Shown: in pieces, positions 3,864 to 19,969 of the stretch | How positions within the stretch are numbered: position 1 is the first letter of the stretch | Layout of the letters: every line of letters begins with the position of its first letter | IMG/VR virus record: IMGVR_UViG_3300045988_176106 | DNA length: 64,000 nt | Source: a virus | Direction: 5' to 3' (one strand) | Made by a program: the position numbers and the translations under genes | The notes under the pieces: model-generated | Databases searched by the model: none | Seen by the model: only the letters and a program-made list of their open reading frames with translations | What the model was told of the DNA's origin: nothing

Positions 3864-6800
3864 TTAAAAACCAATTGCATCAAATGTATCCATAACTTCT
3901 GACATACTATTTTCTGCATTTTCGCCTAAAGGTATTAGACCTTGACTTTGACCATAAATGGTAAAAATTGGGGAAAGCATACCACCAAAGAATGTATAAT
4001 CCACAATATGTTTAAACCACATTTGGATATCTGCATCACTTAAGTCAACTAAGGCACCTTTATTGTGCATACGTAAAAACTTATTGCACATTTCAAGGGC
4101 ATTGGTGTTAACTGCCCAATTTACAATACGACAAATAGAAACGGCAACTTCTCTTGAATAACCTAAGTCATTCTCGATACTTTCAATTACCTTTTTAACA
4201 CTCTTGTCGTCTTTTGTCATGTTTTTAAGATAGAAGACAGCATGAGAGCTAGCACCACCAGAAACATGTTTAATCGCATTAATTACACGATCTTCAAGAA
4301 CCATTGTGTAAATATGATCATAGGTCGACAAGTCTTCCTCCTTAATGCGAAGTTGAACCTTGCGTTTACGTTCCCACGGCACATAAGATTTAGGATCATT
4401 ATTACATGCCAGCCCATAATATAATTGAACTAACATATAAAATACCCATGCATCATTAGTGCCTGGACCAACTGCATTCTTAGCCATAGCTGATGAACAC
4501 AGAAACTCCATATAGGCATTATCACCAGGATGTTTAGGATAAATTGGAACGTAATACAATTCGTACTTTTTACTCCAATCAACATCTTCAATAGATGAAT
4601 ATTCGGAAAGAAGAAAATCTTCATCCCACTTCTTTTGATCTTCAGTAAAATATTCCAATTCAAATTGAGCCATCATTTCTTGCTGCTCAATTCCTGGGAT
4701 TGTACTAATTTGCAATAAGTCGCCATCGTTATCACTATGGCTACGTTTTACAATTTCAATAGAAACTAAAGCACAATATAAATTACCTTGTACATCCAGA
4801 TAGTCATTGACTGTCATTCCATAATTTTCTTGAAGATAGTCATTGAATTCATCAATTCCCCAAAGTTGGGAAATGATCATCTGTGAACGCCATAAAAATG
4901 GATTACGCAAAGTAAATGCATTTAATGGACGGAACTGGTCAAGCATTGCCTCTTCAGGAGTTTTATCATTTGGCTTGCCATAAATATATTCACGAATACT
5001 CTCAAGAATATTACGATCAAGAATTACGACTTTACCTTCAGGAACATATTTATCATGAACCTGTTTAAGATTTACACCTTTAAGGCTTGGCTGAATAAGG
5101 GATTTAACATAAGTTTGACCACCTAATTCAGTGCGATACAGCATTGATTTAATTGCATTTAAATAGCCACTCCATGCAGAAGGGCGCTTTTGATTACGTT
5201 CATTACGATGCGGGGCAATAGTAAAATACTGACTAGGGCCAGTAATTGCAGCACGAATGATTTTAGACAATTCAATAAGCATAGTTGGATATACGTATTG
5301 ACCATCATTTTGTTTACCGCAGAATTTATTCAAAATCTCTGCAGAAGGCACACGAATACTTGTACCAGAACGTACCTTACTTAAGTCGATATAAAACCCC
5401 TTATTGAATTCAGGATCCAATAATTTACTGCTAGTAGGAATAATAGCAGAACGACTCAAAACTAAGTCTTGTTCATTAAACATTGATTTTAATTCAACCA
5501 ATGTATAAGATGGATAATTGTCAACGTATTCAAATACACGACCTTCGTCTGATAAGATTTTTGCCAATTCTTCAACAATAGCCTTATCAGTTTTATCAAT
5601 ACAATTGTCTAAAATATACTGACCCAATGGAGAGTCTTTTGTCTGACAAATATATTTCAAACAATTAAATGACATGCCTTGACTTTTAATCTTGGCAAAA
5701 TGGCTACCTAATTCAGTATAAGAATACTGAACTAATCCATATTTAACGTTTTCGATTACGATAATTTCATCATCGTAACCATCAATACGCTTAACACGTT
5801 TTTCATATGTAGCAGTTGGCAATGAATCAACAGCAGCATTGATTTCCTCTTCGTTTAAACTATCAAGGTAATCTTTGCCATTATTATAATAGCCATATTT
5901 AAATGCAAAAGCAGCTTGAGCAAGACGAATAGTATTCATTTTGCCTTTAAGACTATTAATGCCGGCTACAATATCCACATCGAGGACTTTATCTTCTTTG
6001 CCGTCTTCGTGAATTTTAATTTTGCCACAACTACGCATAGTCTTAGTAACGCCTTTCAAGCCTGTTTGACTTGTAATGCGGGCATTACCTGCTTTATAAT
6101 AGGCAACATAATCAATACGAGCAGACCCATTATATCCTGATTCTTCAATAGATGTAATCTGAATGTGATCTACCATATCAATGTAAATTGACTCGCCACC
6201 ACGTGAGCCAATTTTAATATATCCACCTTTGCTGTAAATAGTTTCACCAACTTTTACGTCAATTTCGTCAAATTCAGTTTCAATATGACGAGGCGTGAAT
6301 ACAATTTCTTTGCCTACTTTTGGCGATACTTCAATTTCACCGCCAACTAAACGATACGATTCAAGCTCGATATCGTTATAAACCATAACTGCATCAACCA
6401 AAGTATTATCTTTGGTTACTAATTCGCCATCCTTTTCAATTACATCTTGTAAAAAGATAGCTTTAGATGGATTACTTACACCAAATGCATTGCCATTAAG
6501 ATGAGTCTTAAATCGTGCAGGTAAAGCTTGTCCAACTTTAAACAAGCTTGAATAACCTACAAAACCACCATTTTCGTCTCTGAATACTTGGAATCCAGGA
6601 GCTTGAAACTCTTTACCATTTTTAGAAATGATAATTTTATTTGATTCTGCAAGTATAGATTCACTTCCAGGAAGTACATTAAAGTACATCGCAGAAGCTT
6701 TAATGGCGCGATCAGATGGATTAAACAAAATTGGCAAGGCATCACCCATCACTTTGTCGTGATGCAAATATGTTAGAACCTTACTGTACTCATTATAAGG

Positions 6801-7250
6801 AGAAATAATAACAAGTTCAGAAGATTCTTTCAACGCAGCATTATATGCATTACTTGTTACATACAATACATGGTTCTTAACATAATTGATATCTTTACGG
6901 ATCAATTCAGTAAATAACTGATCATATTTAAATAAAGATTCAAGGCGTTCATATAGCATCATAAACATAAGTTCATGATGACTCATCAATTCAATATCAG
7001 AATTTTTATCGATATGCTTGGTTGCAAACAGAAATTCAGGCCAATTCAATTTAGGATCATAAAATGATTTAGGAATCTCAATTGTAGTTGGTTCTGAAAA
7101 TTCGTTTACAATTTCCATTGCAATACGATCTTGCAACAATTTCCAATTAAGTCTTGGATCTTGTGGCAAATTCTTAGAATAAATATCGAAAACTTCCGCA
7201 ACAGTTGCATTACCATCAATAATCGGAATATCTTTCAAACGAATATACAT
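3864..7250 (-). CDS. Single-chain two-barrel (beta-like + beta'-like) DNA-dependent RNA polymerase, copy 1
   Basis: 1128 aa. GNARITSQTGLKGVTK...VLDVDIVAGINSLKGKMNTIRL resembles beta GDKxxGRHGNKGV...VDIVLNPLGVPSRMNIGQ (KG at 6048-6065). RNPFLWRSQMI...SHSDNDGDLL resembles beta' RxPxLH...NADFDGD (DNDGD = 4719-4733). Confidence 0.8.
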   Translation of the reverse strand: MYIRLKDIPIIDGNATVAEVFDIYSKNLPQDPRLNWKLLQDRIAMEIVNEFSEPTTIEIPKSFYDPKLNWPEFLFATKHIDKNSDIELMSHHELMFMMLYERLESLFKYDQLFTELIRKDINYVKNHVLYVTSNAYNAALKESSELVIISPYNEYSKVLTYLHHDKVMGDALPILFNPSDRAIKASAMYFNVLPGSESILAESNKIIISKNGKEFQAPGFQVFRDENGGFVGYSSLFKVGQALPARFKTHLNGNAFGVSNPSKAIFLQDVIEKDGELVTKDNTLVDAVMVYNDIELESYRLVGGEIEVSPKVGKEIVFTPRHIETEFDEIDVKVGETIYSKGGYIKIGSRGGESIYIDMVDHIQITSIEESGYNGSARIDYVAYYKAGNARITSQTGLKGVTKTMRSCGKIKIHEDGKEDKVLDVDIVAGINSLKGKMNTIRLAQAAFAFKYGYYNNGKDYLDSLNEEEINAAVDSLPTATYEKRVKRIDGYDDEIIVIENVKYGLVQYSYTELGSHFAKIKSQGMSFNCLKYICQTKDSPLGQYILDNCIDKTDKAIVEELAKILSDEGRVFEYVDNYPSYTLVELKSMFNEQDLVLSRSAIIPTSSKLLDPEFNKGFYIDLSKVRSGTSIRVPSAEILNKFCGKQNDGQYVYPTMLIELSKIIRAAITGPSQYFTIAPHRNERNQKRPSAWSGYLNAIKSMLYRTELGGQTYVKSLIQPSLKGVNLKQVHDKYVPEGKVVILDRNILESIREYIYGKPNDKTPEEAMLDQFRPLNAFTLRNPFLWRSQMIISQLWGIDEFNDYLQENYGMTVNDYLDVQGNLYCALVSIEIVKRSHSDNDGDLLQISTIPGIEQQEMMAQFELEYFTEDQKKWDEDFLLSEYSSIEDVDWSKKYELYYVPIYPKHPGDNAYMEFLCSSAMAKNAVGPGTNDAWVFYMLVQLYYGLACNNDPKSYVPWERKRKVQLRIKEEDLSTYDHIYTMVLEDRVINAIKHVSGGASSHAVFYLKNMTKDDKSVKKVIESIENDLGYSREVAVSICRIVNWAVNTNALEMCNKFLRMHNKGALVDLSDADIQMWFKHIVDYTFFGGMLSPIFTIYGQSQGLIPLGENAENSMSEVMDTFDAIGF

Positions 7251-7289
7251 CTTTTGTCCTTTCTGAGAACATTGTTACAAAAACAAAAA

Positions 7290-7313
7290 AGCCTAACACA
7301 TAAGTGCTAGGCT
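7290..7313 (-). terminator. Stem-loop related to the conserved family
   Basis: Plus strand AGCCTAACAC-ataa-GTGCTAGGCT after an A-run. Minus RNA has one G-U next to the CAC/GUG closing pairs. Lies after the stop of 7321..7752. Confidence 0.6.
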
Positions 7314-11336: not shown

Positions 11337-11368
11337 AATAAAGATTCCAAAAAAATAGCCAATAAAAA

Positions 11369-11388
11369 ATCGACACAAAAGTGCCGAT
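11369..11388 (-). terminator. Conserved stem-loop family copy
   Basis: Plus strand AAAAAATCGACAC-aaaa-GTGCCGATT. Minus RNA AUCGGCAC/GUGUCGAU (one G-U) plus a U-run. Lies just after the stop of 11396..11836. Confidence 0.65.
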
Positions 11389-11395
11389 TTTAAAA

Positions 11396-11836
11396 TTAAT
11401 TAGACACAATTTCAAGATTCTTTAATATGCCTTTATTAACAATTTTAAGAGTACCAACAATACTGAAAATATACTCACCATCAGCAGTTTTGCCAACTAC
11501 ATAACATTTAAATTTATGGCTATCCCATTGAACAGGAAGCTTTTCTTTAAAAGCCTTCTCAAGTATATTAGTATTAACTGCAGACCAAAGAAATTCTTCT
11601 TCAACAATATCTTTGATTTCAAAAGCATCATGTTGAAGATTTTTACCATCTTCTGTCCAATATATCATAGACCATCTATTAGATTCTTTATTGAATCTGT
11701 ATCCATGAATAACATAATCTTTTTCACAAATATATGGGAAATTTTTTAAATTACAGGTAACTACAGCATAATCGCCATTTTTAAGTAAAACTGTTTGTCC
11801 TACTTTTATATTTGATAAATCAAGTTGTTCTTTCAT
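11396..11836 (-). CDS. Hypothetical protein
   Basis: 146 aa ORF. The antisense ORF 11516..11749 is rejected. Confidence 0.75.
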   Translation of the reverse strand: MKEQLDLSNIKVGQTVLLKNGDYAVVTCNLKNFPYICEKDYVIHGYRFNKESNRWSMIYWTEDGKNLQHDAFEIKDIVEEEFLWSAVNTNILEKAFKEKLPVQWDSHKFKCYVVGKTADGEYIFSIVGTLKIVNKGILKNLEIVSN

Positions 11837-11883
11837 TTTACATCTTTCTAGAAAAGATTAATAAAAATTTAATCAAAAAATAA

Positions 11884-11902
11884 TCGACACATAAAGTGCC
11901 GA
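11884..11902 (-). terminator. Conserved stem-loop family copy
   Basis: AAAAAATAATCGACAC-ataaa-GTGCCGAC, after the stop of 11917..12252. Confidence 0.65.
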
Positions 11903-11916
11903 CTACTATTAAACAA

Positions 11917-12252
11917 TTATTCAGATGCCTTTTTATCAGGCAATTGTTCCAATGCTGTAATTGCGCGATTATTTTTAACACCAACAGCCTTAGACATCTC
12001 AATAGAATGATTGATATGCTGGAATTGCATATCTTCAAAATGAGATTTGTCAATCAGACGGCATAAAGCTTTTGCTTCTTTGCCGGGAACCATATCATTA
12101 ACGCATTCTCGATAGATCATTTTATCATGATCAAGATATGACTCAATCCAATAATTTGAATTGATGTACATACGATTTACAGAATCATCCTTATAAGGAT
12201 TACATGCTGTCAGAGCCAAAGATGCGGCAATTACAATAGCAAATTTTTTCAT
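11917..12252 (-). CDS. Lipoprotein
   Basis: 111 aa. MKKFAIVIAASLALTAC has a signal peptide and an L-T-A-C lipobox. Confidence 0.8.
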   Translation of the reverse strand: MKKFAIVIAASLALTACNPYKDDSVNRMYINSNYWIESYLDHDKMIYRECVNDMVPGKEAKALCRLIDKSHFEDMQFQHINHSIEMSKAVGVKNNRAITALEQLPDKKASE

Positions 12253-12263
12253 TCAAGTCTCCA

Positions 12264-12572
12264 TTATTTGCAAGGTTCATTAAAATTAAGTACAGTATAT
12301 TCTCTTCCGAATTGCTGTACAAAAAGAATTTGTTTGCCATCAATACAAACATTTGTGGCTGTAAATTTATAGCCATCAATAGAGAATTGTGTCTTTGTCC
12401 CTACCAAATGTTTAGTGACGTTTTCAATTTTTACAGGATTATCAATTTTAGGTTTTTTACTTTGCGAATTAGAAGCAAGATAAAACAACAAAATTAAAAA
12501 CCCAATTACTGTTACTACAATACCTACAACAGGACCGATAATATCGCACATAAACTTTTTAAATTTAGACAT
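12264..12572 (-). CDS. Membrane-anchored protein
   Basis: 102 aa. GGAGG Shine-Dalgarno. N-terminal TM IIGPVVGIVVTVIGFLILLFYL. Confidence 0.8.
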   Translation of the reverse strand: MSKFKKFMCDIIGPVVGIVVTVIGFLILLFYLASNSQSKKPKIDNPVKIENVTKHLVGTKTQFSIDGYKFTATNVCIDGKQILFVQQFGREYTVLNFNEPCK

Positions 12573-12610
12573 AGTACACCTCCAATAAAAATAGTTTTAA
12601 TCAAAAAATA

Positions 12611-12630
12611 TTCGACACTATTGTGCCGAA
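12611..12630 (-). terminator. Conserved stem-loop family copy
   Basis: AAAAAATATTCGACAC-tatt-GTGCCGAA, after the stop of 12641..13069. Confidence 0.65.
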
Positions 12631-12640
12631 CATTTTAAAA

Positions 12641-13069
12641 TCAAAACATTGATTTAGGATAGATAGAAAAGTTAAATGATTTAAACTTTTCAAATTCATT
12701 ATGGATGCGACAAAGAATCCAATAAAAGTGTCTTAAACGGCCTTTAGCATTCTTTGAAATATTTTCGCTAGACATAAGGGCTTTTAAATCACATTTTGGA
12801 ATAGGATTATTATTGTCAATACCAAAATATTCAATCATTTTCAAAGATTGGAAATACATACGAATGTTAAAATAATATTTCCTAAATCTATCTGTGATAT
12901 GCATATAATTTGGATTGGGATTAATTAAGTCTGCAGGACTATAATAAACCTTACCAGAGATTTCTTTTTGCTGAGCAAATATAGCATTACCTGTCTTAAT
13001 ATCAGATAAAAATTCTTCATAATTTTGAATATTCAAACGATAGAAATAATTAAATTTTTCAATATTCAT
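12641..13069 (-). CDS. Hypothetical protein
   Basis: 142 aa ORF abutting the upstream gene. Confidence 0.75.
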   Translation of the reverse strand: MNIEKFNYFYRLNIQNYEEFLSDIKTGNAIFAQQKEISGKVYYSPADLINPNPNYMHITDRFRKYYFNIRMYFQSLKMIEYFGIDNNNPIPKCDLKALMSSENISKNAKGRLRHFYWILCRIHNEFEKFKSFNFSIYPKSMF

Positions 13070-13071
13070 TT

Positions 13072-13575
13072 TTATTTGCCTTTCTTAAAATGGGGCCTTA
13101 GATGCTTTTTCATAACAAGGCGAGCCTCATTATCTTTCTTACAAGAAGTCCATTTCCAGTTCCAATCAATTTTACTTTTACGAATAATTTTAACAATACC
13201 CGTCGCAGAAATTGATCCGTAGTGAACTTTAATACCTTGAAAATCTAAATCTTTGGCCATAACTATTTTTAATGGATCCATATAGTAGATTTTACCTTTA
13301 TATTTAAACCTAACCATAATATGATCCCAATTGGTATAATTGATAAGTGATAAAACATTATCATCTGTAAGTTTAAGTTTACGAATCTTAAACTCATCAC
13401 AATAATGATTTCCAACATACCATGTTATTACAACACCTACATTTGAAACGCCTTTTATTTTTAGAAGAAGCTTATAAATAGTGAAGGCAGATTTTCCACA
13501 TCCTCCCTGATTTATAAAATAAAATCTTTCTAACATCTTTTTATTCATTTCTTTGATAGTTTCAATCAAATCCAT
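13072..13575 (-). CDS. Possible papain-fold (C39-like) cysteine peptidase
   Basis: Start re-called at ATG 13575 (MDLIETIKE..., GGAG upstream), 167 aa. NQGGCGKSAFTIY and NWDHIMVRF resemble the Q-x-x-x-CG...H dyad context. The assignment is weak. Confidence 0.4.
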   Translation of the reverse strand: MDLIETIKEMNKKMLERFYFINQGGCGKSAFTIYKLLLKIKGVSNVGVVITWYVGNHYCDEFKIRKLKLTDDNVLSLINYTNWDHIMVRFKYKGKIYYMDPLKIVMAKDLDFQGIKVHYGSISATGIVKIIRKSKIDWNWKWTSCKKDNEARLVMKKHLRPHFKKGK

Positions 13576-13606
13576 GATAGACTCCAAAAATATTTTAATC
13601 AAAAAG

Positions 13607-13628
13607 AAATCGACACTAAGGTCGATTT
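13607..13628 (-). terminator. Conserved stem-loop family copy (variant 3' half)
   Basis: AAATCGAC-actaag-GTCGATTT, a perfect 8-bp stem, after the stop of 13681..13923. Confidence 0.6.
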
Positions 13629-13680
13629 CCAAAAAACTTTAAGATCAAAATATAAATGATATGTCATCAATGAGAAATTA

Positions 13681-13923
13681 TCATTTAGAAATTTTTGACA
13701 AGCTGCCATCCATAACAGCTTTAACGATACCAAAGGTAACATATCCAAAGATTGCCAATACTGCTAATGTTACGAAAAATTCAAGTACGCCTGGGGCATA
13801 CAAAATAACAAAAACGGAAATGCCAAGAATGGCACAAACTTTAGTAAGAGAGATATTGCCATCTTTCTTATAAAGCAAACGAGCAAGTGCAATAGTTGCT
13901 GCACCAATAAAATACTTTTTCAT
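13681..13923 (-). CDS. Small membrane protein
   Basis: 80 aa, two hydrophobic segments, AAGGTG Shine-Dalgarno. Confidence 0.75.
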   Translation of the reverse strand: MKKYFIGAATIALARLLYKKDGNISLTKVCAILGISVFVILYAPGVLEFFVTLAVLAIFGYVTFGIVKAVMDGSLSKISK

Positions 13924-13987
13924 ATTTTACACCTTAAAAGATGGAAACCAACAATAAATAAAGAATATATAAAGTCATGATAAACCT

Positions 13988-14350
13988 TTATGCAAACTTA
14001 CCAATATTTTTATTAGTAAATTTATTTAGCCAATTGGAAATCTTGAATTTGGGTTCATATTCAACCCATTTATAGGTACCATCTTCTTGCTTTTCGTAAC
14101 GAGCATAACCGTAAACCCGCGCGAGAATGAAAAGAGTAACACCAAAAATCAAACCAGTAGCTGCACCAATTACAAAACCAGACATAGTACCAGAAAAACC
14201 ACAAGCCATACCAATCAGCAATGAAAATGCTAAATCAACATAGGCTTCATATCCTAATACACGTTTTAACAACTTCGGCGATGCTTTAGCCAAAATAGAA
14301 ATAATGGCAACACTAGTAACTAGTGAACCAAATACAATAAGCCCAATCAT
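13988..14350 (-). CDS. Membrane protein
   Basis: 120 aa, three hydrophobic segments. Confidence 0.75.
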   Translation of the reverse strand: MIGLIVFGSLVTSVAIISILAKASPKLLKRVLGYEAYVDLAFSLLIGMACGFSGTMSGFVIGAATGLIFGVTLFILARVYGYARYEKQEDGTYKWVEYEPKFKISNWLNKFTNKNIGKFA

Positions 14351-14353
14351 GAC

Positions 14354-14467
14354 TTACCCTTTCTTTTGTAGTGACAAACCTTTAAGGACAGTAAAAGATA
14401 ACCATCCTAAAAACATAATAACAAACAGTCCAGACATATAGACTGAAATAGCAGTTTCAATTCCCAT
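14354..14467 (-). CDS. Small hydrophobic peptide (37 aa), below the track cutoff
   Basis: Hand translation MGIETAISVYMSGLFVIMFLGWLSFTVLKGLSLQKKG*. AAGGA lies 8 nt upstream, and the stop abuts the next start. Confidence 0.45.
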   Translation of the reverse strand: MGIETAISVYMSGLFVIMFLGWLSFTVLKGLSLQKKG

Positions 14468-14512
14468 ATTTAATCCTTTCTTAAAGTGGATATGGACAAA
14501 ACTTAATCAATA

Positions 14513-14538
14513 AAATATCGACACTAAAGTCGATATTT
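14513..14538 (-). terminator. Conserved stem-loop family copy (variant)
   Basis: AAATATCGAC-actaaa-GTCGATATTT, a perfect 10-bp stem, at the downstream (minus-sense) edge of the 1.2-kb ORF-free region. Confidence 0.6.
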
Positions 14539-14539
14539 A

Positions 14540-15750
14540 AATAAAATATTACAGGAATATACATATGCATATATACCCGCGCCACTTATTTCTCTATTGA
14601 TCAATTGTACATAAAATAAAATATACAATAAAAATAGAACAAACATAAAACAATAAAGCAATAATTAAATCTACACTAATCATAATAAAAAACACCTATA
14701 TAAGAATAAACAAATAAAAATACACTACAGGAGTACATAAATACATATACACCTATATAATAAGAATATACAACAAAGGCTATTCACATAGCCTTATTAC
14801 AATATAGTATTTAATCAATACAGGGATAGTTATACATATATAGTAATAGAAATACATTAATATAGGAATACATCTAGTACTGATTTAAATATCTATTTAG
14901 ATACTTTTTACCTGGTACAGCGATCAAAAATATATGTAATACAAGCCACTCTGTGGCTATAGATGTCAAAATAATTACACCTATATAGATACCAGTACAT
15001 ATTTTATAAATACCCTATTGCATTCTTATACTATATATACTATACTTATATATATTGTTAGAGAGTAGTCCTACTGGAGAGACTATAAACTCCTTAAGTG
15101 CATGGAAAGGCATACATATATTAGAATTTATCCCTTTTTATTCTTTATTTCCTGTATCGCATCAGTGCTTGTAGTATTCTTTTTAAAGGGTTCTTTGTCA
15201 ATGTATATTTATTTATACACTACAGAGATATTATACTTATTAGCGGCGTTTTATATCTAATAGGTGTACTATATAAGCAATGCTTGGTTCCTGAATTGGG
15301 CTGTGAAGCTGTAAGGTTACGTCCCCAGCGACATCACGTGGTGTGATGGGTATTAGCATATATAATATACTTGATGTAATCCCTGATAATATACTATTTC
15401 TTATTGTATATATTAGTATATATACTTAGTGAACAACTTAATTTTTAATTGCATCCTTTAAGTAGGAGCGCCCGCCGTATACTTATTTATAGTATTCGGT
15501 AATTTTGTCGTATCTGTACAATCTGTATTACTAATATTACAACACATGTCCCGCCGGCCCATGTGCTATTTTTATATCTGTCTTATATATACTGTATTGT
15601 ACACACTTATATAAACATACTATTGTATTTAATACGCTTATATATGTAAATAAAATGCAGCCAGTACCTCTTGTATTAAAAAATAGGTACTTCTTGTTGT
15701 AATCATTTATTAGTAAAGGGCTCGCTTACGCTCGCCCAGTATTGTATTAC
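14540..15750. other. 1.2-kb ORF-free, TATA-rich region with scattered GC-rich hairpins and short direct repeats
   Basis: No ORF of 60 aa or more. CACCTATATA x3 (14693, 14750, 14978). TACACTACAG x2 (14721, 15216). TATACTTA x4-5 (15045-15480). Hairpins at 14776-14795, 14944-14958, 15332-15348, 15544-15564. Confidence 0.6.
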
Positions 15751-15753
15751 CTT

Positions 15754-16014
15754 CTATATCAGAACAGTAATTAGCTTTCCTGTTAATACAGTTGCTATAT
15801 GTCCTAATACAATAGAGATTAGTATTAGTATTGTGATAAAGATTCGACTATTTTGTCGTTTCTTAAGCCACTTAATCTTATTAGCCGCGGCGGATAGATT
15901 AATTACTATCAGCGCCGTATATACTACTAATCCAATGATGTATAACAATCCAATAGGATTACTTACAATTGTGCTGTATAGCAGGTAATCCCAAACGCTT
16001 CCAAATACAAACAT
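15754..16014 (-). CDS. Membrane protein
   Basis: 86 aa, three hydrophobic segments, GAGG upstream. Confidence 0.75.
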   Translation of the reverse strand: MFVFGSVWDYLLYSTIVSNPIGLLYIIGLVVYTALIVINLSAAANKIKWLKKRQNSRIFITILILISIVLGHIATVLTGKLITVLI

Positions 16015-16024
16015 ACCAATACCT

Positions 16025-16144
16025 CTACATAAAAAGAAACTTAAATAACAAAGTCATTACCGTTTCTAATACATACAATATCCCTATTGTTGATAGTATA
16101 ACAATAATGGCCATAAGAAATGATATAAAATCATATTCTTTCAT
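16025..16144 (-). CDS. Small hydrophobic peptide (39 aa), below the track cutoff
   Basis: Hand translation MKEYDFISFLMAIIVILSTIGILYVLETVMTLLFKFLFM*. It fills the gap between two genes, but the Shine-Dalgarno is weak. Confidence 0.35.
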   Translation of the reverse strand: MKEYDFISFLMAIIVILSTIGILYVLETVMTLLFKFLFM

Positions 16145-16149
16145 GATTG

Positions 16150-16491
16150 TTAACTCAAATTAGTTACGCCAACTAATTTCTCTAAACGCTCTACTCGCTT
16201 TTTAAGCTCTTCAAGTTCGTTATCTAAATTTTTATTGCCGGCCTTTAATTTTAACGTTTGAATAAGAATATCCGTGGTAACATCATATCCTGGATATACA
16301 CTACTTGAACCAACCCAAAGTACTTTACCGACCCTGTCAAATTTAAAAACAGGATCTGTATGACTTTCTTTTACAAACTTGGTACATTTCAATTTTGCAA
16401 TACACATGGGTATATCAGTATCGATAACTTCGTATTCGTTTCCGAATTTATCTACAACGATCTGGCCAACATTGATATCTTTAATATCCAT
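16150..16491 (-). CDS. Hypothetical protein with C-terminal coiled coil
   Basis: Start re-called at ATG 16491 (MDIKDINVGQ..., GGAGG upstream), 113 aa. Confidence 0.7.
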   Translation of the reverse strand: MDIKDINVGQIVVDKFGNEYEVIDTDIPMCIAKLKCTKFVKESHTDPVFKFDRVGKVLWVGSSSVYPGYDVTTDILIQTLKLKAGNKNLDNELEELKKRVERLEKLVGVTNLS

Positions 16492-16528
16492 TTTTATTAC
16501 CTCCAACAAGAATTTAATCATAAAAAGA

Positions 16529-16548
16529 TCCCACTCCTAAAAGTGGGA
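16529..16548 (-). terminator. Intrinsic terminator (symmetric A-run/T-run flanks)
   Basis: TCCCACT-cctaaa-AGTGGGA flanked by AAAAAGA and CCTTTTTTT, after the stop of 16566..18005. Confidence 0.65.
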
Positions 16549-16565
16549 CCTTTTTTTACTACAAA

Positions 16566-18005
16566 TTAAGCAGCAGTTTCTGCTTGTGGACCTTTGTCTA
16601 CAGTACCATCAGCGCCGGAGAGCAATTCATCAACACTTTGTTCTTGATCTTTTGCTTCAGCTTCAGCAGGTTTAGCACCGCGAGCTAAACGTCGTGCACG
16701 TGCAGCTTGTACACCTGTTTGCTCTTTAGGTTTTTCAGAACCTACTGTTTCAATGCTGTTGATATCGATTTCTTCGGCAACTTCAACAGCTTCTACAGGT
16801 GCAGCCAACATGTCGAAGTCTTCAGATACGACAGGAGCGGCAACACCACTACCAGCGCGGTCGAAGATGTATTCAGAAATCACAACATTAGGTACAGTAA
16901 CCCAAGGTTGTCCTTGACCCATAATACGGCTTTCCATAGTTACACGGTTGCCGGATTGGTAAATAATAGCAGGATTGCTAGCGATACCACGTTCAAACGC
17001 TTCAGGGCGAGAGTTAGTGTTACCGCGATTGTTATCGTACAAAGTAGTACGGATAGCAATCTTATTACCTTGTGGGTTAGTTACCTCTACAATGCGGCGA
17101 GTATATTGGGTCTCGCTGTTTTGGGTAACTTGGATACCACAACCAAAGTCAGAATGCAGAGGATCAACATCAGCCATATTGACTGTTGCTTTACCTTGCA
17201 TAAACAGACCTGCAATTACACGGCTTGCAGGGAACAAGGTGTTTTCCCACAAGTCTTTAGCAGTGCTGCCAACACGGCCGTAACCAGCACCCAATTCTGG
17301 CAATGCGATCGGCAAAAGGGTGTCGCGGTTAGCATAAATCGCTACACCTTTGAACAGTTTTTCTTCTTTAACCAACTTTTGAACTTGTGCCAAATATTCT
17401 TTGTACAGTTCTTCCATACGTTGATTGATGGCATTAACATTCATTGCCTTTTCAATAGTACGGATTTCACCGGTATTGTGAACATATTGGCTGTTCATTG
17501 TAGACAGGTTTTCTTTTTGGGACTGCAAACCCAAAATTGCAAGAGCATTACGATTGATGACATCATACTCTGCTTGTTTTACTGCGTCGGATGGGCATAC
17601 AAAAGTGTATGTCCATTGGCCTTGAACTGACATTGCATTGAATACATCGGAACGCAAAGCAGTTTCCATAGCCCAGTGGTTATGGTCGCCAACAGGAGTG
17701 TTGACGAAATCTACAGCACCTTTTTGGGCTACAACCCAATGATCGTCTGCATTTGCCATAATCCAACCGGTGGCACGTGCATTACGAGTGTTGCTGTATG
17801 GTGCTGGGACCATAACGTTTTGAGTACGGTATACGCTGAATACTGGACCATTATCAGTATCGCGGCGGTTAATGCTGTAAATCACGCGACGATTTTCAGG
17901 GCGTGGCATGTATACAGTGCCAGATACTTCATGGAAGTCTTCAGGGTTGTTACGTACAACAGAGATGATGCGGGATGGATTGATTTCGAAGTTTTCTTGG
18001 TTCAT
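16566..18005 (-). CDS. Abundant-looking non-structural protein of unknown function with a disordered acidic/Ala-rich C-terminal tail
   Basis: 479 aa. Visibly G+C-richer than neighbours. AAGGA Shine-Dalgarno. Flanked by terminators. The last ~90 aa are low-complexity (AEEIDINS...ARARRLARGAKPAEAEAKDQEQ...). Confidence 0.85.
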   Translation of the reverse strand: MNQENFEINPSRIISVVRNNPEDFHEVSGTVYMPRPENRRVIYSINRRDTDNGPVFSVYRTQNVMVPAPYSNTRNARATGWIMANADDHWVVAQKGAVDFVNTPVGDHNHWAMETALRSDVFNAMSVQGQWTYTFVCPSDAVKQAEYDVINRNALAILGLQSQKENLSTMNSQYVHNTGEIRTIEKAMNVNAINQRMEELYKEYLAQVQKLVKEEKLFKGVAIYANRDTLLPIALPELGAGYGRVGSTAKDLWENTLFPASRVIAGLFMQGKATVNMADVDPLHSDFGCGIQVTQNSETQYTRRIVEVTNPQGNKIAIRTTLYDNNRGNTNSRPEAFERGIASNPAIIYQSGNRVTMESRIMGQGQPWVTVPNVVISEYIFDRAGSGVAAPVVSEDFDMLAAPVEAVEVAEEIDINSIETVGSEKPKEQTGVQAARARRLARGAKPAEAEAKDQEQSVDELLSGADGTVDKGPQAETAA

Positions 18006-18082
18006 TTTAAGATCCTTTTTTAAAAGTAGAATTAAAGTGGGCGAATACCCGTTGGTGAGGACACCATTATCCTCAATAAAAA

Positions 18083-18111
18083 ATCGACACTTCCTGTGAA
18101 GAAGTGCCGAT
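18083..18111 (-). terminator. Conserved stem-loop family copy (extended stem)
   Basis: AAAAAATCGACACTTC-ctgtgaa-GAAGTGCCGAT, 11 bp with one G-U on minus RNA. Confidence 0.65.
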
Positions 18112-18119
18112 CTTTATTT

Positions 18120-18392
18120 TTACTTGCAACTTTTGATGTACAAGTCTGCCAGGTTACTACTGCGAGGAACAAACACGACTTGCGGGTTATTTATACTAGT
18201 AACATTATTTAAGCTGTCACTAGCAACAATATCCCCATCGCTATTTTGCAAAGCGAATTCAATTGCTGCCTTTTCGGCGATATTGTTATCTTTCGCCTTA
18301 ATACGCTTGCAAGACCTTTTGCTATTGTTAGCAGAGATGTATCCGATTATGAATACATCCCCACTAACTCTAGATGCGTCAGCGTATATCAT
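18120..18392 (-). CDS. Mini RNase H-like domain protein
   Basis: 90 aa. YADAS...G...NNIAEKAAIEFAL...VASDS...PRSSNLADLY follows the D-E-D...N-x-x-AD pattern of small RNase H-like domains. ATGA overlap with the upstream gene. Confidence 0.5.
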   Translation of the reverse strand: MIYADASRVSGDVFIIGYISANNSKRSCKRIKAKDNNIAEKAAIEFALQNSDGDIVASDSLNNVTSINNPQVVFVPRSSNLADLYIKSCK

Positions 18393-19318
18393 GCTGCAGA
18401 ATCTTCTTCAGCAGTCATAGCCATCATGCCTTTACGGATGATGCCTTTAGCACCACTTGCACCAAAATCTTTGGTTGTTGCAGCGTCCAACAGATCAATA
18501 ATGCAAGACAGTGCCAGCGCAGATACTTTAATAATGGAACCAATTACTTTCTTGATACCATTATAAACATAAAACACCGCACCTTTGGCAAAGTCCCACA
18601 ACAGACCGCCTACTTTAGTCAGACCAACCATAATAGAGCCAGTCCAACCTTTCTTAACTGCATCAGGGGTTTTATCAATAGTCCCCTTAACAGATTCGAC
18701 AATCGCTTCAGCCTCTTCATGAGTGCTGACATTCATTTTCAGTTCAGAAAGAATGTCTTTAGCAGCTTCATTTACTGCAGGCATATTGCATTGAGCAATA
18801 CTGATACCTGTGATATCGCTCAAACCAAAATGGGCGATAGCACGGATATATTTGCGCACTTCAACATACAAGCGCACTTTGTTTTCTTCTGTATTATTCG
18901 TATCCAATTCAATATTAGCACGAATAACTGCTGAATGCAGCAAATGAATACTGGATTCGTCCAGTTTCTCGATTTCTTTCATTTCTGCATCGAGGACTTC
19001 TTGAGATTTGTAGTTTTGAGCGTTTACGGTTTTCATGATGGTTTCCTTGTAATTGGTGAAAATTGAATCGGCAACATTGCCAAGTTTAGTTTCTGGTTTA
19101 GATTCATCCATAACATCGTATGGATCCGTATCGATTATACCTTTCTGAATATAATCGTGTGCAACTGTTTTGTACTCAATAAAGCCGGCAATAACCTTTT
19201 CTTCATTGAGTTTTTTAACTGACTGATCAATAGCAGCGGCATAACCTTTAGCGGCATTCTTAATACCGTTTGCAATATTATGCAACTGCTTTCTCGCAGC
19301 TTTTGCTTTGTCGGCCAT
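18389..19318 (-). CDS. Hypothetical protein (helical, G+C-richer)
   Basis: 309 aa, AAGGAA Shine-Dalgarno. Antisense ORFs 18374..18934 and 18246..18566 are rejected. Confidence 0.8.
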   Translation of the reverse strand: MADKAKAARKQLHNIANGIKNAAKGYAAAIDQSVKKLNEEKVIAGFIEYKTVAHDYIQKGIIDTDPYDVMDESKPETKLGNVADSIFTNYKETIMKTVNAQNYKSQEVLDAEMKEIEKLDESSIHLLHSAVIRANIELDTNNTEENKVRLYVEVRKYIRAIAHFGLSDITGISIAQCNMPAVNEAAKDILSELKMNVSTHEEAEAIVESVKGTIDKTPDAVKKGWTGSIMVGLTKVGGLLWDFAKGAVFYVYNGIKKVIGSIIKVSALALSCIIDLLDAATTKDFGASGAKGIIRKGMMAMTAEEDSAA

Positions 19319-19354
19319 ATCATTTCCTTTCTATCAGATGGCTTTCAACAAAAA

Positions 19355-19388
19355 ATCGACACTAAACGTTAATTCGTCTAGTGCCGAT
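19355..19388 (-). terminator. Conserved stem-loop family copy (long loop)
   Basis: AAAAAATCGACACTA-(14 nt)-TAGTGCCGAT. Confidence 0.6.
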
Positions 19389-19395
19389 GGTCAGA

Positions 19396-19770: not shown

Positions 19771-19816
19771 TTTGTTGTCCTTTCTTAAGACGTGGTTAAA
19801 AAATATAATCAAAAAG

Positions 19817-19851
19817 AAGTCGACACTTAACCTATAGTGGTGTGGCGACTT
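19817..19851 (-). terminator. Conserved stem-loop family copy (bulged)
   Basis: Minus RNA AAGUCG(CC)CACAC...GUGUCGACUU. Confidence 0.5.
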
Positions 19852-19936
19852 TCACTACGAAGAGCGTACGGAGAAAATAATCCCCGTCGACACTAATCCT
19901 GTGATAAAAACTTAATATACAACTTCCTTCAAAAAA

Positions 19937-19960: not shown

Positions 19961-19969
19961 TACAGTAAC

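What the first reader, a model, noticed from the sequence alone, without database searches (positions are those of the whole stretch)
3864..7250. Single-polypeptide beta+beta'-type RNA polymerase (copy 1)
One 1128-aa chain carries both double-psi beta-barrel signatures of multisubunit RNAPs in beta-then-beta' order.
- GNARITSQTGLKGVTK...VLDVDIVAGINSLKGKMNTIRL parallels bacterial beta GDKMAGRHGNKGV...VDIVLNPLGVPSRMNIGQ.
- RNPFLWRSQMI...(x45)...SHSDNDGDLL parallels beta' RAPTLHRLGIQAF...NADFDGDQM.

At ~1.1 kaa it is far smaller than beta plus beta' together. That places it among minimal single-chain two-barrel RNAPs such as the YonO type, rather than the split multisubunit RNAPs of phiKZ/AR9-like jumbo phages.
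Basis: partly seen in the sequence, partly recalled or inferred. Interest (0 to 1): 0.7.

Follow-up and report, generated by a model that had tools for sequence, protein, structure and literature searches.

The report
Unannotated single-chain two-barrel phage RNA polymerase
This 1128-residue phage gene very probably encodes a compact RNA polymerase of the same ancient fold as cellular RNA polymerases. It belongs to a protein family that no database or paper I could search names, and the same phage carries a second, very distant copy.

Summary
No Pfam, PHROGs, NCBIfam or PDB sequence search recognises it.

- **Family.** It belongs to a family of at least 193 clusters (50% identity), almost all metagenomic.
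- **Conservation.** In 56 full-length members the catalytic residues never vary: R391, K399 and K435 in the first barrel; R782, P784, D840, D842 and D844 in the second.
- **Fold.** A confident AlphaFold model (pLDDT 85.9) matches only RNA polymerases in the PDB. The second-largest subunits come first, then the largest subunits and the crAss-like phage polymerase gp66.

It is not a detectable member of the YonO/PF05183 lineage. Its only isolate homologue is Acinetobacter jumbo phage ME3 gp152+gp154, annotated hypothetical and split by a group I intron.

"Copy 2" (21601-24951) is a true but very distant paralogue (profile-profile E 6.7e-10), and related phages keep it in the same position. An 18-nt sense-strand motif, often preceded by a hairpin, fills the gene block between the two polymerase genes. 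It is a candidate promoter or terminator signal.

Activity, template, timing and virion packaging are untested.

The parts
3864..7250 (-). ORF1: 1128-aa single-chain two-barrel RNA polymerase candidate, the finding itself
   Evidence: ORF, translation. Family of 193 clusters. AlphaFold model pLDDT 85.9. Foldseek PDB hits are all RNAPs.
5898..6125 (-). Beta-like barrel (DPBB-B), residues about 376-451. It carries invariant R391, G397, K399 and K435. A variable loop (405-425) is expanded by up to about 60 aa in relatives. No large flap-like insertion is present.
   Evidence: Strands 376-386, 390-394, 398-405, 410-414, 421-424, 427-429 and helix 438-451 in the model. Invariants and alignment block. 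Best hhalign local match to E. coli beta 1069-1108.
6054..6080 (-). RITSQTGLK: the two basic active-site residues R391 and K399, 8 residues apart as in E. coli beta K1065/K1073
   Evidence: Translation. Both are 100% conserved. The same spacing holds in ORF2 (R305/K313) and its counterparts.
4701..4925 (-). Beta'-like barrel (DPBB-A), residues about 776-850. It holds R782-N-P784 and W787, a lineage-specific helical insert (799-817), and the metal-binding loop.
   Evidence: Secondary structure. R782, P784, W787, D840, D842, G843 and D844 are all 100% conserved. hhalign to E. coli beta' 450-477 gives E 0.0036-0.023.
4719..4733 (-). DNDGD (D840, D842, D844): predicted Mg2+-binding aspartate triad
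   Evidence: Translation. Invariance.
4254..4514 (-). Residues 913-999: a long helix (913-949) with invariant K924, T931 and W935, and a helix ending in invariant K994-H995 followed by GG. These are candidate bridge-helix and trigger-loop equivalents. This is inference only.
   Evidence: Helices, invariants, sequence. The same residues align in ORF2 (K859, T866, K911-H912). Direct hhalign to E. coli beta' bridge helix and trigger loop found nothing.
7278..7313 (-). Hairpin plus T-run directly upstream of ORF1 (AGCCTAGCAC-TTAT-GTGTTAGGCT-TTTTTGTTTT). It is a diverged copy of the intergenic element. In 45-48% relatives a canonical copy sits at this position.
   Evidence: Relatives: L007:9951, L021:9787 and 9951.
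11355..21540 (-). Gene block between the two polymerase genes. It carries 15 sense-strand copies of GTGTCGA-TTnTTTTTT-GA, most preceded by the complementary arm TCGGCAC, each roughly 40-57 nt upstream of a start codon where measured. Candidate promoter and/or terminator signal of a phage RNAP.
   Evidence: The same distribution in relatives starts right after the ORF2 counterpart.
21601..24951 (-). ORF2: 1116-aa distant paralogue ('copy 2') with R305/K313-G, K730-x-P732, D781-F-D783-G-D785, K859/T866 and K911-H912
   Evidence: Family-family hhalign gives probability 96.6%, E 6.7e-10 over 745 columns. The structure model failed with pLDDT 32.6.

Best explanation
ORF1 encodes a single-polypeptide, two-barrel (double-psi beta-barrel), most probably DNA-dependent RNA polymerase. 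It belongs to a so far unannotated family carried by large lytic myovirus-like phages.

**Shown**
- One chain holds a beta-like barrel that supplies two basic residues (R391, K399) plus K435.
- About 380 residues downstream it holds a beta'-like barrel that supplies R782-x-P784 and the D840-x-D842-x-D844 triad.
- These residues never vary across the family.
- The predicted fold matches only RNAP catalytic subunits.

**Inferred**
- The two barrels face each other and form a two-metal active site that extends RNA on a DNA template. A long helix (913-949) and a K994-H995-containing element would act as bridge helix and trigger loop.
- The enzyme is made after infection (non-virion) and lets the phage transcribe part of its genome without the host polymerase. 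It would work in a cascade with the distant paralogue ORF2.
- ORF2 lies about 1.5 kb from the divergent start region of the leftward arm. The conserved 18-nt motif GTGTCGR-T-rich-TGR begins immediately downstream of ORF2 and continues to just upstream of ORF1.
- My preferred order is therefore: ORF2 is expressed first, the motif-marked block including ORF1 comes next, and the ORF1 enzyme serves later genes. That order is the weakest part of the model.
For: **Gene and family**
- A single intact ORF.
- 22 word-index homologues and 193 representative clusters, 99 of them at E<=1e-30.
- Invariant R391, G397, K399, K435, R782, P784, W787, D840, D842, G843, D844, K924, T931, W935 and K994 in 56 full-length members.
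- These cover 7 of the 8 residues that Ruprich-Robert & Thuriaux list as shared by all two-barrel polymerases (PMC2919709, read). One Lys is replaced by Arg.

**Fold**
- AlphaFold model with pLDDT 85.9 and pTM 0.82.
- Foldseek against the PDB: Pol III RPC2 7d58_B E 1.8e-5, M. tuberculosis beta 6bzo_C E 3.5e-5, bacterial beta' 5vo8_D E 1.3e-3, crAss-like phi14:2 gp66 6vr4_A E 3.2e-3 with the highest TMq (0.26). Also Rpb1, ASFV RNAP and AR9 nvRNAP. No non-RNAP appears in the listed top 50.
- BFVD hits beyond ME3: a 'minor tail protein' of a gut siphovirus (E 2.2e-7, TMq 0.41), giant-virus and poxvirus RNAP subunits, and crAss-like phage proteins.
- Best local hhalign matches to E. coli RpoB and RpoC land on the catalytic motifs.

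**Context**
- Phage setting: terminase, portal, major head protein and tail sheath lie in the same window.
- ORF1 sits among small unannotated genes in the non-structural arm.
- Sigma-70-like promoters are not enriched between 7 and 27 kb: 83 found against 81.7 +/- 9.3 in shuffles.
- A paralogous second enzyme is conserved in synteny.
- The motif block lies between the two genes, here and in relatives.
- In ME3 a group I intron with a homing endonuclease sits inside the RNP motif codons. In my knowledge such elements favour highly conserved sites of essential genes.
Against: - There is no biochemical evidence of any kind.
- All sequence-level links to known RNAPs are non-significant on their own (E 0.0036-0.3). 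The case rests on conservation plus a predicted structure.
- Foldseek TM-scores to known RNAPs are low (0.13-0.26) because only the core superposes.
- The eighth universal residue (the Rpb2 D837 equivalent) could not be assigned.
- The bridge-helix and trigger-loop assignment failed the direct hhalign test.
- Template specificity (DNA or RNA) cannot be read from sequence. QDE-1, a relative in this superfamily, uses both.
- Nothing here shows whether ORF1 or ORF2 is packaged in the virion, when either is expressed, or which one, if either, reads the GTGTCGR motif.
- The hairpin plus U-run form of many motif copies looks like ordinary intrinsic terminators.
Confidence: 0.8

Rival explanations
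1. ORF1 is a divergent but true member of the YonO / 0305phi8-36 gp99 / eukaryotic RdRP-like lineage (Pfam PF05183 and relatives). On this reading it is already known in kind and has merely drifted beyond sequence detection.
For: - The architecture class is the same: one chain with beta-like then beta'-like barrels.
- ME3, the only isolate with an ORF1 homologue, shares its structural module with Bacillus phage 0305phi8-36 (annotations).
- 0305phi8-36 gp99, a YonO-related RNAP (BLASTP to YonO E 3.4e-9; PF05183 E 1.2e-18), lies near the right genome end next to the terminal repeat. ME3 gp152-154 lies in a similar place, at 222-227 kb of 234.9 kb.
- hhalign of the ORF1 family against gp99 puts RSPLIH and ADTDGD in register with RNPxLW and SDxDGD.
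Against: - That alignment is not significant (E 0.037, probability 1.4%).
- YonO gives no motif-level alignment at all.
- None of the 22 members of alignment A1 or the 8 further distant members scanned hits PF05183, even at E<=1.
- The layout differs. The aspartate triad is at 74% of the chain here, against 47% in gp99 and 64% in YonO.
- The top Foldseek hits are cellular second-largest subunits, not QDE-1.
- Only single-sequence templates were available for YonO and gp99, so sensitivity was limited.
Confidence: 0.2
2. ORF1 is a two-barrel nucleotide polymerase but not the phage's transcriptase. It might be an RNA-dependent RNA polymerase, a primer-synthesising enzyme for replication, or a PolD-like DNA polymerase.
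For: - The two-barrel superfamily includes RdRPs (QDE-1 uses both RNA and DNA templates; PMC9508822 abstract, listed) and, according to Iyer et al. 2021 (PMC7824862), archaeal DNA polymerases.
- Nothing in the sequence fixes the template or the product.
Against: - No RdRP or PolD chain appears in the listed top 50 Foldseek PDB hits. All are DNA-dependent RNAPs.
- Two paralogues per genome, a gene-class-specific upstream motif and no excess of sigma-70-like promoters fit a transcription cascade better.
- The characterised phage enzymes of this architecture (YonO, gp66, P23-45 gp64/gp96) are described as DNA-dependent transcriptases (PMC5467207; PMC10770324 and its preprint).
Confidence: 0.08
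3. The role assignment is reversed. ORF1 is the virion-packaged enzyme injected with the DNA to transcribe the first genes, and ORF2 is the enzyme made after infection.
For: - Phages with two two-barrel RNAPs (phiKZ/AR9, P23-45) use one packaged and one non-packaged enzyme (PMC7598289 abstract; PMC10770324 preprint).
- ORF1 is much better conserved than ORF2: about 46% against about 28% identity between the same phage pairs.
- The closest non-family BFVD hit is annotated as a minor tail protein.
- Both proteins end in acidic-aromatic tails that could be packaging or docking signals.
Against: - ORF1 lies about 24 kb from the structural module, in the opposite orientation, among small genes of early type.
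- It is preceded by the same kind of element as the other genes of that block. This suggests it is transcribed with them rather than with late genes.
- There are no proteomic data.
Confidence: 0.2
4. ORF1 is a catalytically inert descendant of an RNAP that now serves a structural or regulatory role.
For: None directly. This possibility is only open because activity is untested.
Against: Every residue expected to bind metal or substrate is 100% conserved across homologues that are 21-48% identical, and in the paralogue family as well. This is the signature of purifying selection on catalysis.
Confidence: 0.03

Closest known systems
Acinetobacter phage vB_AbaM_ME3 gp152 + gp154 (annotated 'hypothetical protein')
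   Same: True homologue and the only one in 50,697 GenBank phage records apart from a fragment in the PBAB25 record. tblastn gives 29% identity over 95% of ORF1, E 1e-65. The BFVD model of gp152 matches at E 4.9e-50 with TMt 0.79. It has the same motifs, RNP... and SDVDGD.
   Different: The ME3 gene is interrupted inside the RNP motif by a group I intron (RF00028, 51 bits) carrying an endonuclease gene, gp153. It is therefore annotated as two hypothetical proteins. ME3 is a 235-kb phage of a gammaproteobacterium, whereas the window phage group is about 170-188 kb and about 33% GC. No ORF2-like paralogue was found in the phage collection, which includes ME3, by tblastn. Only 70 kb of the ME3 genome was inspected directly.
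YonO of Bacillus prophage SPbeta (single-chain two-barrel RNAP, 839 aa)
   Same: One polypeptide with a beta-like then a beta'-like barrel, and even the same DNDGD sequence. It is phage-encoded, and homology to cellular RNAPs is limited to a few catalytic residues (PMC5467207). The yonO genes of several SPbeta-like phages are also split by inserted nuclease genes.
   Different: There is no detectable sequence or profile similarity. ORF1 is 290 residues longer, with the triad much nearer the C-terminus. Forrest et al. report that YonO has no trigger-loop homology, whereas this family has an invariant K-H-x-x-G-G element in the corresponding region (inference). YonO is a late-gene enzyme of a temperate siphovirus of Firmicutes.
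Bacillus phage 0305phi8-36 gp99 (1218 aa, 'hypothetical DNA-directed RNA polymerase', Pfam PF05183 RdRP)
   Same: A single-chain two-barrel enzyme in a large myovirus whose structural genes are related to those of ME3. The gene lies near the right genome end in the early arm. Size is similar.
   Different: gp99 hits PF05183 (E 1.2e-18) and YonO (E 3.4e-9), and ORF1 does neither. hhalign of the ORF1 family against gp99 gives E 0.037. 0305phi8-36 is annotated with one such gene in the 169 kb of its record that I read; the window phage has two.
crAss-like phage phi14:2 gp66 virion RNAP (PDB 6vr4)
   Same: Single-chain two-barrel phage RNAP. It is the best global superposition among solved structures (TMq 0.26, E 3.2e-3). 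crAss-like phage proteins also appear among the BFVD hits.
   Different: gp66 is 2166-2180 residues long, is virion-packaged and resembles QDE-1 (the P23-45 paper, PMC10770324, whose preprint I read). ORF1 is half that size, lies outside the structural module, and its top Foldseek E-values go to cellular beta-type subunits.
Thermus phage P23-45 gp96 (tape-measure-fused virion RNAP) and gp64 (non-virion RNAP)
   Same: One phage carries two highly diverged paralogous single-chain two-barrel RNAPs that arose by an ancient duplication (PMC10770324; preprint read). That is the situation shown here for ORF1 and ORF2. Each P23-45 enzyme has its own DNA motif.
   Different: Here there is no fusion to a tail protein, and both genes lie in the non-structural arm. 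The P23-45 structures were not among the listed top 50 Foldseek hits. Sequence relatedness was not tested directly.
Split multisubunit RNAPs of phiKZ/AR9-type jumbo phages
   Same: The same catalytic fold, and phages with two sets of enzymes. AR9 nvRNAP beta' fragment 7s01_d is a Foldseek hit (E 4.9e-2).
   Different: Those enzymes consist of 4-5 separate polypeptides homologous along their length to bacterial beta and beta' (PMC7598289; PMC7824862). ORF1 is one chain of 1128 aa, and Pfam RNAP domains do not detect it.

Membership tests
Two-barrel (DPBB) RNA polymerase superfamily | DxDxD metal-binding triad in the beta'-type barrel | tested here: met
   D840-N-D842-G-D844. 100% conserved in 56 homologues. 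Aligns to E. coli beta' NADFDGD.
Two-barrel (DPBB) RNA polymerase superfamily | R-x-P motif 20-100 residues upstream of the triad (Rpb1 R446/P448) | tested here: met
   R782-N-P784 lies 55 residues before D840 and is 100% conserved. It fits the [RK]xPx{20,100}DxDxD filter used in PMC10770324 Supplementary Data 4.
Two-barrel (DPBB) RNA polymerase superfamily | Two invariant basic residues 8 apart in the beta-type barrel (Rpb2 K979/K987; E. coli beta K1065/K1073) | tested here: met
   R391 and K399 are 100% conserved. The first is Arg instead of Lys, in ORF2 as well (R305/K313). K399-G400 aligns to beta K1073-G.
Two-barrel (DPBB) RNA polymerase superfamily | Eighth universal residue, the acidic Rpb2 D837 equivalent | tested here: inconclusive
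   The candidates are D281 (invariant in alignment A1) and E305 (93%), next to invariant G304. No alignment to a known RNAP covers this region.
Two-barrel (DPBB) RNA polymerase superfamily | Fold: two double-psi beta-barrels within an RNAP-like core | tested here: met
   Model pLDDT 85.9. Foldseek probability is 1.00 to RPC2 and Mtb beta, and the listed top 50 PDB hits are all RNAPs. Caveats: this is a predicted structure, TM-scores are 0.13-0.26, and the tool gave no residue-level superposition.
Two-barrel (DPBB) RNA polymerase superfamily | Template-dependent RNA synthesis | not testable with these tools
   Needs purified protein.
YonO family | Detectable sequence or profile homology to YonO | tested here: not met
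   hhalign of A1 or the 56-sequence profile against YonO gives E 0.26-0.47 on irrelevant segments. tblastn with YonO finds 40 phage records, none of them ME3-like. YonO was used as a single sequence, so sensitivity was limited.
Pfam PF05183 RdRP (includes 0305phi8-36 gp99 and eukaryotic RdRPs) | Match to the PF05183 model | tested here: not met
   No hit for ORF1, ORF2, the 22 members of A1 or 8 distant members, even at relaxed E-value cut-offs (0.01 to 1). The positive control gp99 scores E 1.2e-18.
Multisubunit RNAP (bacterial or phiKZ/AR9 type) | Beta and beta' functions on separate polypeptides, detected by the Pfam RNA_pol_Rpb1/Rpb2 domains | tested here: not met
   A single 1128-aa ORF carries both barrels. 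No Pfam RNAP domain is detected.
Phage systems with paired virion and non-virion two-barrel RNAPs (P23-45, phiKZ-like) | Two paralogous two-barrel RNAPs in one genome | tested here: met
   The ORF1 family against the ORF2 family by hhalign gives probability 96.6%, E 6.7e-10, with motifs in register. Syntenic ORF2 counterparts occur in 8 related contigs.
Phage systems with paired virion and non-virion two-barrel RNAPs (P23-45, phiKZ-like) | One enzyme packaged in the virion | not testable with these tools
   No proteomics are available. Neither gene lies in the structural module.

The most novel reading that the evidence does not exclude
ORF1 and ORF2 define a previously unrecognised lineage of paired single-chain two-barrel RNA polymerases. 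Together with their own conserved 18-nt signal (GTGTCGR-T-rich-TGR), they would form a host-independent transcription cascade in a widespread group of about 180-kb, probably human-associated phages and in Acinetobacter jumbo phage ME3.

The lineage is sequence-unrelated to YonO/RdRP-type enzymes. Its nearest structural matches are cellular beta-type subunits, and it keeps a trigger-loop-like invariant His. It could therefore branch between the cellular multisubunit clade and the phage/RdRP clade of two-barrel polymerases.
Probability: 0.35. Interest if true: 0.75.

Novelty: new variant of a known kind. Interest (0 to 1): 0.62.

Why it matters
**For the field.** Single-chain two-barrel RNAPs (YonO, crAss gp66, P23-45 gp64/gp96) are few. 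They are studied as minimal models of the universal transcription enzyme and as clues to its origin. This family adds a fourth, sequence-independent lineage of at least 193 clusters. It has two deeply diverged paralogues per genome and a cultured representative, ME3 on Acinetobacter baumannii, so it can be tested directly.

**For annotation.** It corrects the record that ME3-like jumbo phages encode no RNAP (Iyer et al. 2021, PMC7824862). It also shows that Pfam, PHROGs and NCBIfam miss an entire RNAP family.

**For applications.** If the 18-nt motif is its promoter, this would be a compact enzyme-promoter pair of potential biotechnological use. It would also mark a rifampicin-independent step in phages of a priority pathogen.

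Tried and rejected
- **Database searches, all negative.** Direct sequence searches of ORF1 and of the family profile against Pfam, PHROGs, NCBIfam and PDB sequences found only chance hits such as MjAgo_N, GNA1 and NUB1.
- **ORF1 against ORF2.** BLASTP and single-sequence hhalign were not significant. This was resolved only after I found diverged ORF2 counterparts.
- **AlphaFold model of ORF2.** It used a shallow 84-93% identity alignment and failed with pLDDT 32.6. I did not run Foldseek on it, because a low-confidence model gives meaningless matches.
- **Attempts to reach diverged ORF2 relatives that failed:**
  - the word-index search returned only relatives of at least 84% identity;
  - The search for related loci with alignment A2 did no better;
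  - a homologue search with the neighbouring 479-aa gene returned only a 91% relative;
  - chunk-walking with exact DNA patterns failed;
  - a back-translated QDDFDGD pattern hit only close relatives, because the counterparts read RDDADGD.
- **Bridge helix and trigger loop.** The assignment by hhalign against E. coli beta' found no support and is kept only as inference.
- **0305phi8-36 ORF201 (802 aa).** I suspected it was that phage's RNAP, but it has no DxDxD and carries a P-loop, so I rejected it. The real one is gp99.
- **ME3 second polymerase.** tblastn with ORF2 and with its L062 counterpart found nothing in the phage collection. I inspected only 70 kb of ME3 directly.
- **Genome-contig scan.** Alignment A3 found only 4 MAG contigs, so there is no evidence for prophages or cellular copies.
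- **Sigma-70 promoter scan.** It showed no enrichment, so I did not assign host promoters.

Full report
**1. The observation**

The ORF listing returns one ATG-initiated ORF at 3864..7250 on the minus strand, 1128 aa (translation). Translating window:4719-4733(-) gives DNDGD, and 6054-6080(-) gives RITSQTGLK.

As a bare pattern the evidence is modest. The loose ordered regex [RK]x7KG...[RK]xP...DxDxD appears in 0.9% of shuffles of the protein. Among the 21 stop-free segments of at least 300 aa in all six frames of the window, only this ORF and the ORF at 21601-24951 contain it. Its weight comes from what follows.

**2. Databases do not recognise it**

Pfam gives nothing above noise, PHROGs only a meaningless 20-bit hit, and NCBIfam nothing. 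PDB sequence searches with the protein or with a 22-sequence profile return only chance hits. Scanning all 22 members of the first alignment, and eight more distant members, against Pfam gave no RNA-polymerase family for any of them.

**3. The family**

- The word-index search found 22 homologues, mostly on metagenomic contigs of 170-186 kb.
- The exhaustive profile search found 193 representative clusters at E<=1e-3, of which 99 at E<=1e-30.
- Among 50,697 GenBank phage records, only Acinetobacter jumbo phage ME3 carries a homologue (29% identity over 95% of ORF1), plus a fragment in the PBAB25 record.
- One genome per 185,579 prokaryotic species yielded only four MAG contigs: one unclassified bin, one Saccharimonadales bin and two contigs of a Neisseriaceae bin. 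This is a phage family, not a cellular or prophage one.
- IMG/VR relatives are 107-188 kb contigs. Several come from samples numbered 7000000xxx, which in my recollection are Human Microbiome Project samples.
- A close relative (the L003 contig) and a 45%-identity relative (the L007 contig) encode YadA-anchor adhesins. The close relative also has a faint BamE match, and the 45% relative has rIIA/rIIB-like and NAD-salvage proteins. This points to a Gram-negative host.

**4. Conservation**

In a MAFFT alignment of ORF1 with 55 full-length homologues, the following are 100% conserved:
- R391, G397, K399 and K435
- R782, P784 and W787
- D840, D842, G843 and D844
- W875, E883, K924, T931, W935 and K994

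H995 is 98% conserved.

R391 and K399 are 8 apart, like E. coli beta K1065/K1073. R782-x-P784 precedes the triad by 55 residues. These are seven of the eight residues that Ruprich-Robert & Thuriaux list as common to all two-barrel polymerases (PMC2919709), with Arg replacing one Lys. I could not assign the eighth (Rpb2 D837).

hhalign of the family profile against full-length E. coli RpoB and RpoC is not significant. Even so, its best local matches are ORF1 396-439 to beta 1070-1108 and ORF1 830-857 to beta' 450-477.

**5. Fold**

AlphaFold2 with the 22-sequence alignment gave mean pLDDT 85.9 and pTM 0.82.
- The region 376-451 is a run of short strands followed by a helix.
- The region 776-850 reads strand-strand-helices-strand-helix-loop(DNDGD)-strand. 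Both are as expected for the two barrels.

Foldseek against the PDB returned, in order:
- Pol III RPC2 (E 1.8e-5)
- M. tuberculosis beta (3.5e-5)
- further RPC2 and beta chains
- bacterial beta' (1.3e-3)
- crAss-like phi14:2 gp66 (3.2e-3, highest TMq at 0.26)
- many Rpb1/RPA1/RPC1 chains, ASFV RNAP and the AR9 nvRNAP beta' fragment

All 50 listed hits are RNAPs. TM-scores are low (0.13-0.26), so only the core is shared.

Against BFVD, the ME3 proteins come first (gp152 E 4.9e-50). Next is a 'minor tail protein' of a gut siphovirus (E 2.2e-7, TMq 0.41), then giant-virus and poxvirus RNAP subunits and crAss-like phage proteins.

The barrel region 376-451 has only a short variable loop. It has no large flap-type insertion, which Iyer et al. 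describe for cellular beta subunits and say is lacking in YonO/RdRP-type enzymes (PMC7824862).

**6. Relation to known single-chain enzymes**

- **YonO** (fetched) shows no motif-level alignment to the family profile.
- **0305phi8-36 gp99.** ME3's structural genes are annotated as homologous to those of Bacillus phage 0305phi8-36, so I located that phage's RNAP, gp99. It is related to YonO (BLASTP E 3.4e-9) and to Pfam RdRP PF05183 (E 1.2e-18). Against the ORF1 family, hhalign gives only E 0.037, although RSPLIH and ADTDGD fall in register.
- **Conclusion.** Membership in the YonO/PF05183 lineage was tested and not met. A very remote relationship is not excluded, because the templates were single sequences.

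The literature I could search does not describe this family:
- Iyer et al. [quoted passage not shown]
- The census of viruses with two RNAPs in PMC10770324 has no Acinetobacter or ME3 entry.
- The crAss gp66 preprint does not mention it.
- Several full-text searches found nothing.

**7. Why ME3 was missed**

In ME3 the gene is annotated as two hypothetical proteins, gp152 (798 aa) and gp154 (333 aa), flanking an endonuclease gene.
- gp152 ends ...GLHVRNPS, inside the RNP motif.
- gp154 contains ...EHSDVDGD.
- Rfam finds a group I intron (RF00028, 51 bits, E 1.8e-11) between them.

Across the family, many representative proteins end or begin at profile positions 776/777, 833/834 and 919/920. 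The first two lie next to the R-N-P and the triad motifs. The third lies a few residues upstream of the invariant A923-K924 motif. I suspect recurrent intron or homing-endonuclease insertion at the most conserved codons, but some breaks may simply be contig ends.

**8. The second copy**

The ORF at 21601-24951(-), 1116 aa, has GAMRVISENHVKGV, IKYPELM and NQDDFDGD. It shows no BLASTP similarity to ORF1 and only a weak hhalign signal (E 0.002-0.007). Its database relatives were all at least 84% identical, and the AlphaFold model failed with pLDDT 32.6.

I then walked along IMG/VR contigs of phages whose ORF1 is 45-48% identical. There I found syntenic 1135-1168-aa ORFs that are only about 28% identical to ORF2. 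They keep every motif:
- G.MR[VI].S..H.KGV
- LKSK.VG
- IK[YF]P.LM
- N[QR]DD[FA]DGDR
- AK...G..TN
- MKH

With this nine-sequence profile, hhalign against the 56-sequence ORF1 profile gives probability 96.6% and E 6.7e-10 over 745 columns (ORF1 137-1045 to ORF2 96-967), with all motifs in register.

The phage therefore has two anciently diverged paralogous single-chain two-barrel enzymes. The pair is conserved, and ORF2 evolves much faster. This mirrors P23-45, whose virion and non-virion enzymes arose by an old duplication (preprint of PMC10770324).

**9. Context and a candidate cis-signal**

The window is a myovirus-type phage.
- Terminase (36098-38050), portal (41222-43006), major head protein (45584-46807) and tail sheath (58697-60943) lie on the plus strand.
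- All genes from 481 to 26489 are on the minus strand.
- Sigma-70-like promoters are not enriched between 7 and 27 kb (83 found against 81.7 +/- 9.3). Terminator-like hairpins are enriched (39 against 10.1 +/- 3.5).

The hairpins are not generic. Fifteen sites on the minus strand between 11.3 and 21.6 kb share GTGTCGA-TTnTTTTTT-GA at fixed spacing.
- Most are preceded by the arm TCGGCAC and a loop of 4-18 nt.
- The stem has a conserved G.U wobble, so it pairs fully only in the sense strand.
- Where I measured it, each site lies roughly 40-57 nt upstream of a start codon.
- A position-weight scan finds no other site in the 64 kb on either strand.
- A diverged copy precedes ORF1 (7313-7278).

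In the 45-48% relatives the core reads GTGTCGGT-nn-TTTT-A-Y-G-R.
- It occurs 17 times on the sense strand and 0 on the antisense strand in L062.
- The stem base changes from T-A to C-G, a compensatory change.
- Several copies lack the left arm.
- The first copy lies just after the ORF2 counterpart's stop, none lies upstream of it, and the last lies right before the ORF1 counterpart.

An 18-nt sense-strand core that is conserved across phages with otherwise diverged proteins, sometimes without a hairpin, is more than a generic intrinsic terminator needs. I read it as a candidate promoter, or a promoter-terminator unit, for one of the phage polymerases. This is inference.

**10. Mechanism**

*Shown:* the anatomy of a two-barrel active site on one chain, its conservation and its predicted fold.

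*Inferred from established knowledge of two-barrel RNAPs:* D840, D842 and D844 hold the catalytic Mg2+, and R391, K399, K435 and R782 contact the substrate and the 3' end. The 913-949 helix and the K994-H995 element may act as bridge helix and trigger loop, but the direct alignment test failed.

*Inferred from context:* the enzyme is made after infection as part of the motif-marked gene block. Together with ORF2 it makes phage transcription partly independent of the host enzyme. Which enzyme reads the motif, whether either is packaged, and the temporal order all remain open.

**11. Verdict**

The one correction is that 'YonO type' is an architectural analogy, not family membership. The thing is a known kind (a phage single-chain two-barrel RNAP) in a new, unannotated, sizeable family, with a paralogous pair and a candidate signal. 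I rate it a new variant of a known kind, interest 0.62.

Noticed in passing
window 11355-21540 (minus strand); variant at 7278-7313; relatives L062, L065, L021, L007: Fifteen sense-strand copies of GTGTCGA-TTnTTTTTT-GA lie roughly 40-57 nt upstream of start codons where measured. Most follow a TCGGCAC arm that forms a hairpin with a conserved G.U wobble. None occurs elsewhere in the window. In 45-48% relatives the core is GTGTCGGT..TTTTAYGR, with a compensatory change at the stem base, and some copies lack the hairpin. The series starts right after the ORF2 counterpart and ends before the ORF1 counterpart.
   Followed up: partly
window 26490-26757: The divergent region between the leftward and rightward gene arms holds two tandem hairpin-less repeats facing left, GGGTGAA[AT]TTATTTTTGAT. 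They resemble the right half of the intergenic element and could be the first promoters of the leftward arm.
   Followed up: no
window 9024-9479 (minus strand): A phage-encoded permuted (two-piece) tmRNA. ARAGORN reports the tag ANDNVYMVRAAA. Rfam matches tmRNA_permuted at 118 bits and alpha_tmRNA at 105 bits.
   Followed up: no
window 8139-8212 (minus strand): tRNA-Ile with anticodon TAT in the ORF-poor stretch upstream of the polymerase gene.
   Followed up: no
window 30582-30952 (plus strand): A full-length match to the large non-coding HOLDH RNA (RF02997, 322 bits against a gathering score of 319) in the gap before the structural module.
   Followed up: no
L001:10278-11614 (ME3 record 223116-224452): The ME3 homologue is interrupted inside the R-N-P motif by a group I intron (RF00028, E 1.8e-11) that carries endonuclease gene gp153. 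Many family members in the protein library break at profile positions 776/777, 833/834 and 919/920, beside or a few residues from the catalytic motifs. yonO of several SPbeta-like phages is split in a similar way.
   Followed up: partly
window 3864-3900 and 21601-21640 (C-termini of ORF1 and ORF2): Both polymerases end in an acidic stretch with a terminal aromatic residue (...EVMDTFDAIGF and ...EVLEDMGF). ORF2 counterparts end ...ETVEAESY, and many ORF1 relatives end DIDFL, SLFSMF, DLLSF or FDMSGF. From memory this resembles C-terminal docking peptides such as SSB tips or T4/RB69 clamp-binding tails. It could be a tether or an autoinhibitory tail.
   Followed up: no
window 21601-24951 against 3864-7250: The two paralogues evolve at very different rates. 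Between the same phage groups ORF1 is about 46% identical and ORF2 only about 28%. ORF2 also lies in a stretch of higher G+C: 39-41% at 16-28 kb, against 26-35% around ORF1.
   Followed up: partly
BFVD A0A8S5SD80_1 (Siphoviridae sp. ctnpt50): The best structural match outside the family is the first segment of a protein annotated as minor tail protein (E 2.2e-7, TMq 0.41, 1244 aligned columns). It might be another tail-fused RNAP like P23-45 gp96. I could not retrieve the sequence.
   Followed up: no
GenBank MG366115.1 (Acinetobacter phage PBAB25, 40,260 bp): This unannotated record contains pieces 100% identical to ME3 gp152 that cover only 37% of it. The record may be chimeric or may contain ME3-like fragments.
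   Followed up: no
L003 and L007 (relatives' loci around the polymerase gene): Relatives encode a YadA-anchor trimeric autotransporter-like protein. One or other of them also has matches to BamE (faint), RNase H, NADAR, Tad2-like, rIIA/rIIB-like, NAMPT and PRPP-synthetase-like proteins close to the polymerase gene. These hint at a Gram-negative host and at anti-defence or NAD-salvage functions.
   Followed up: no
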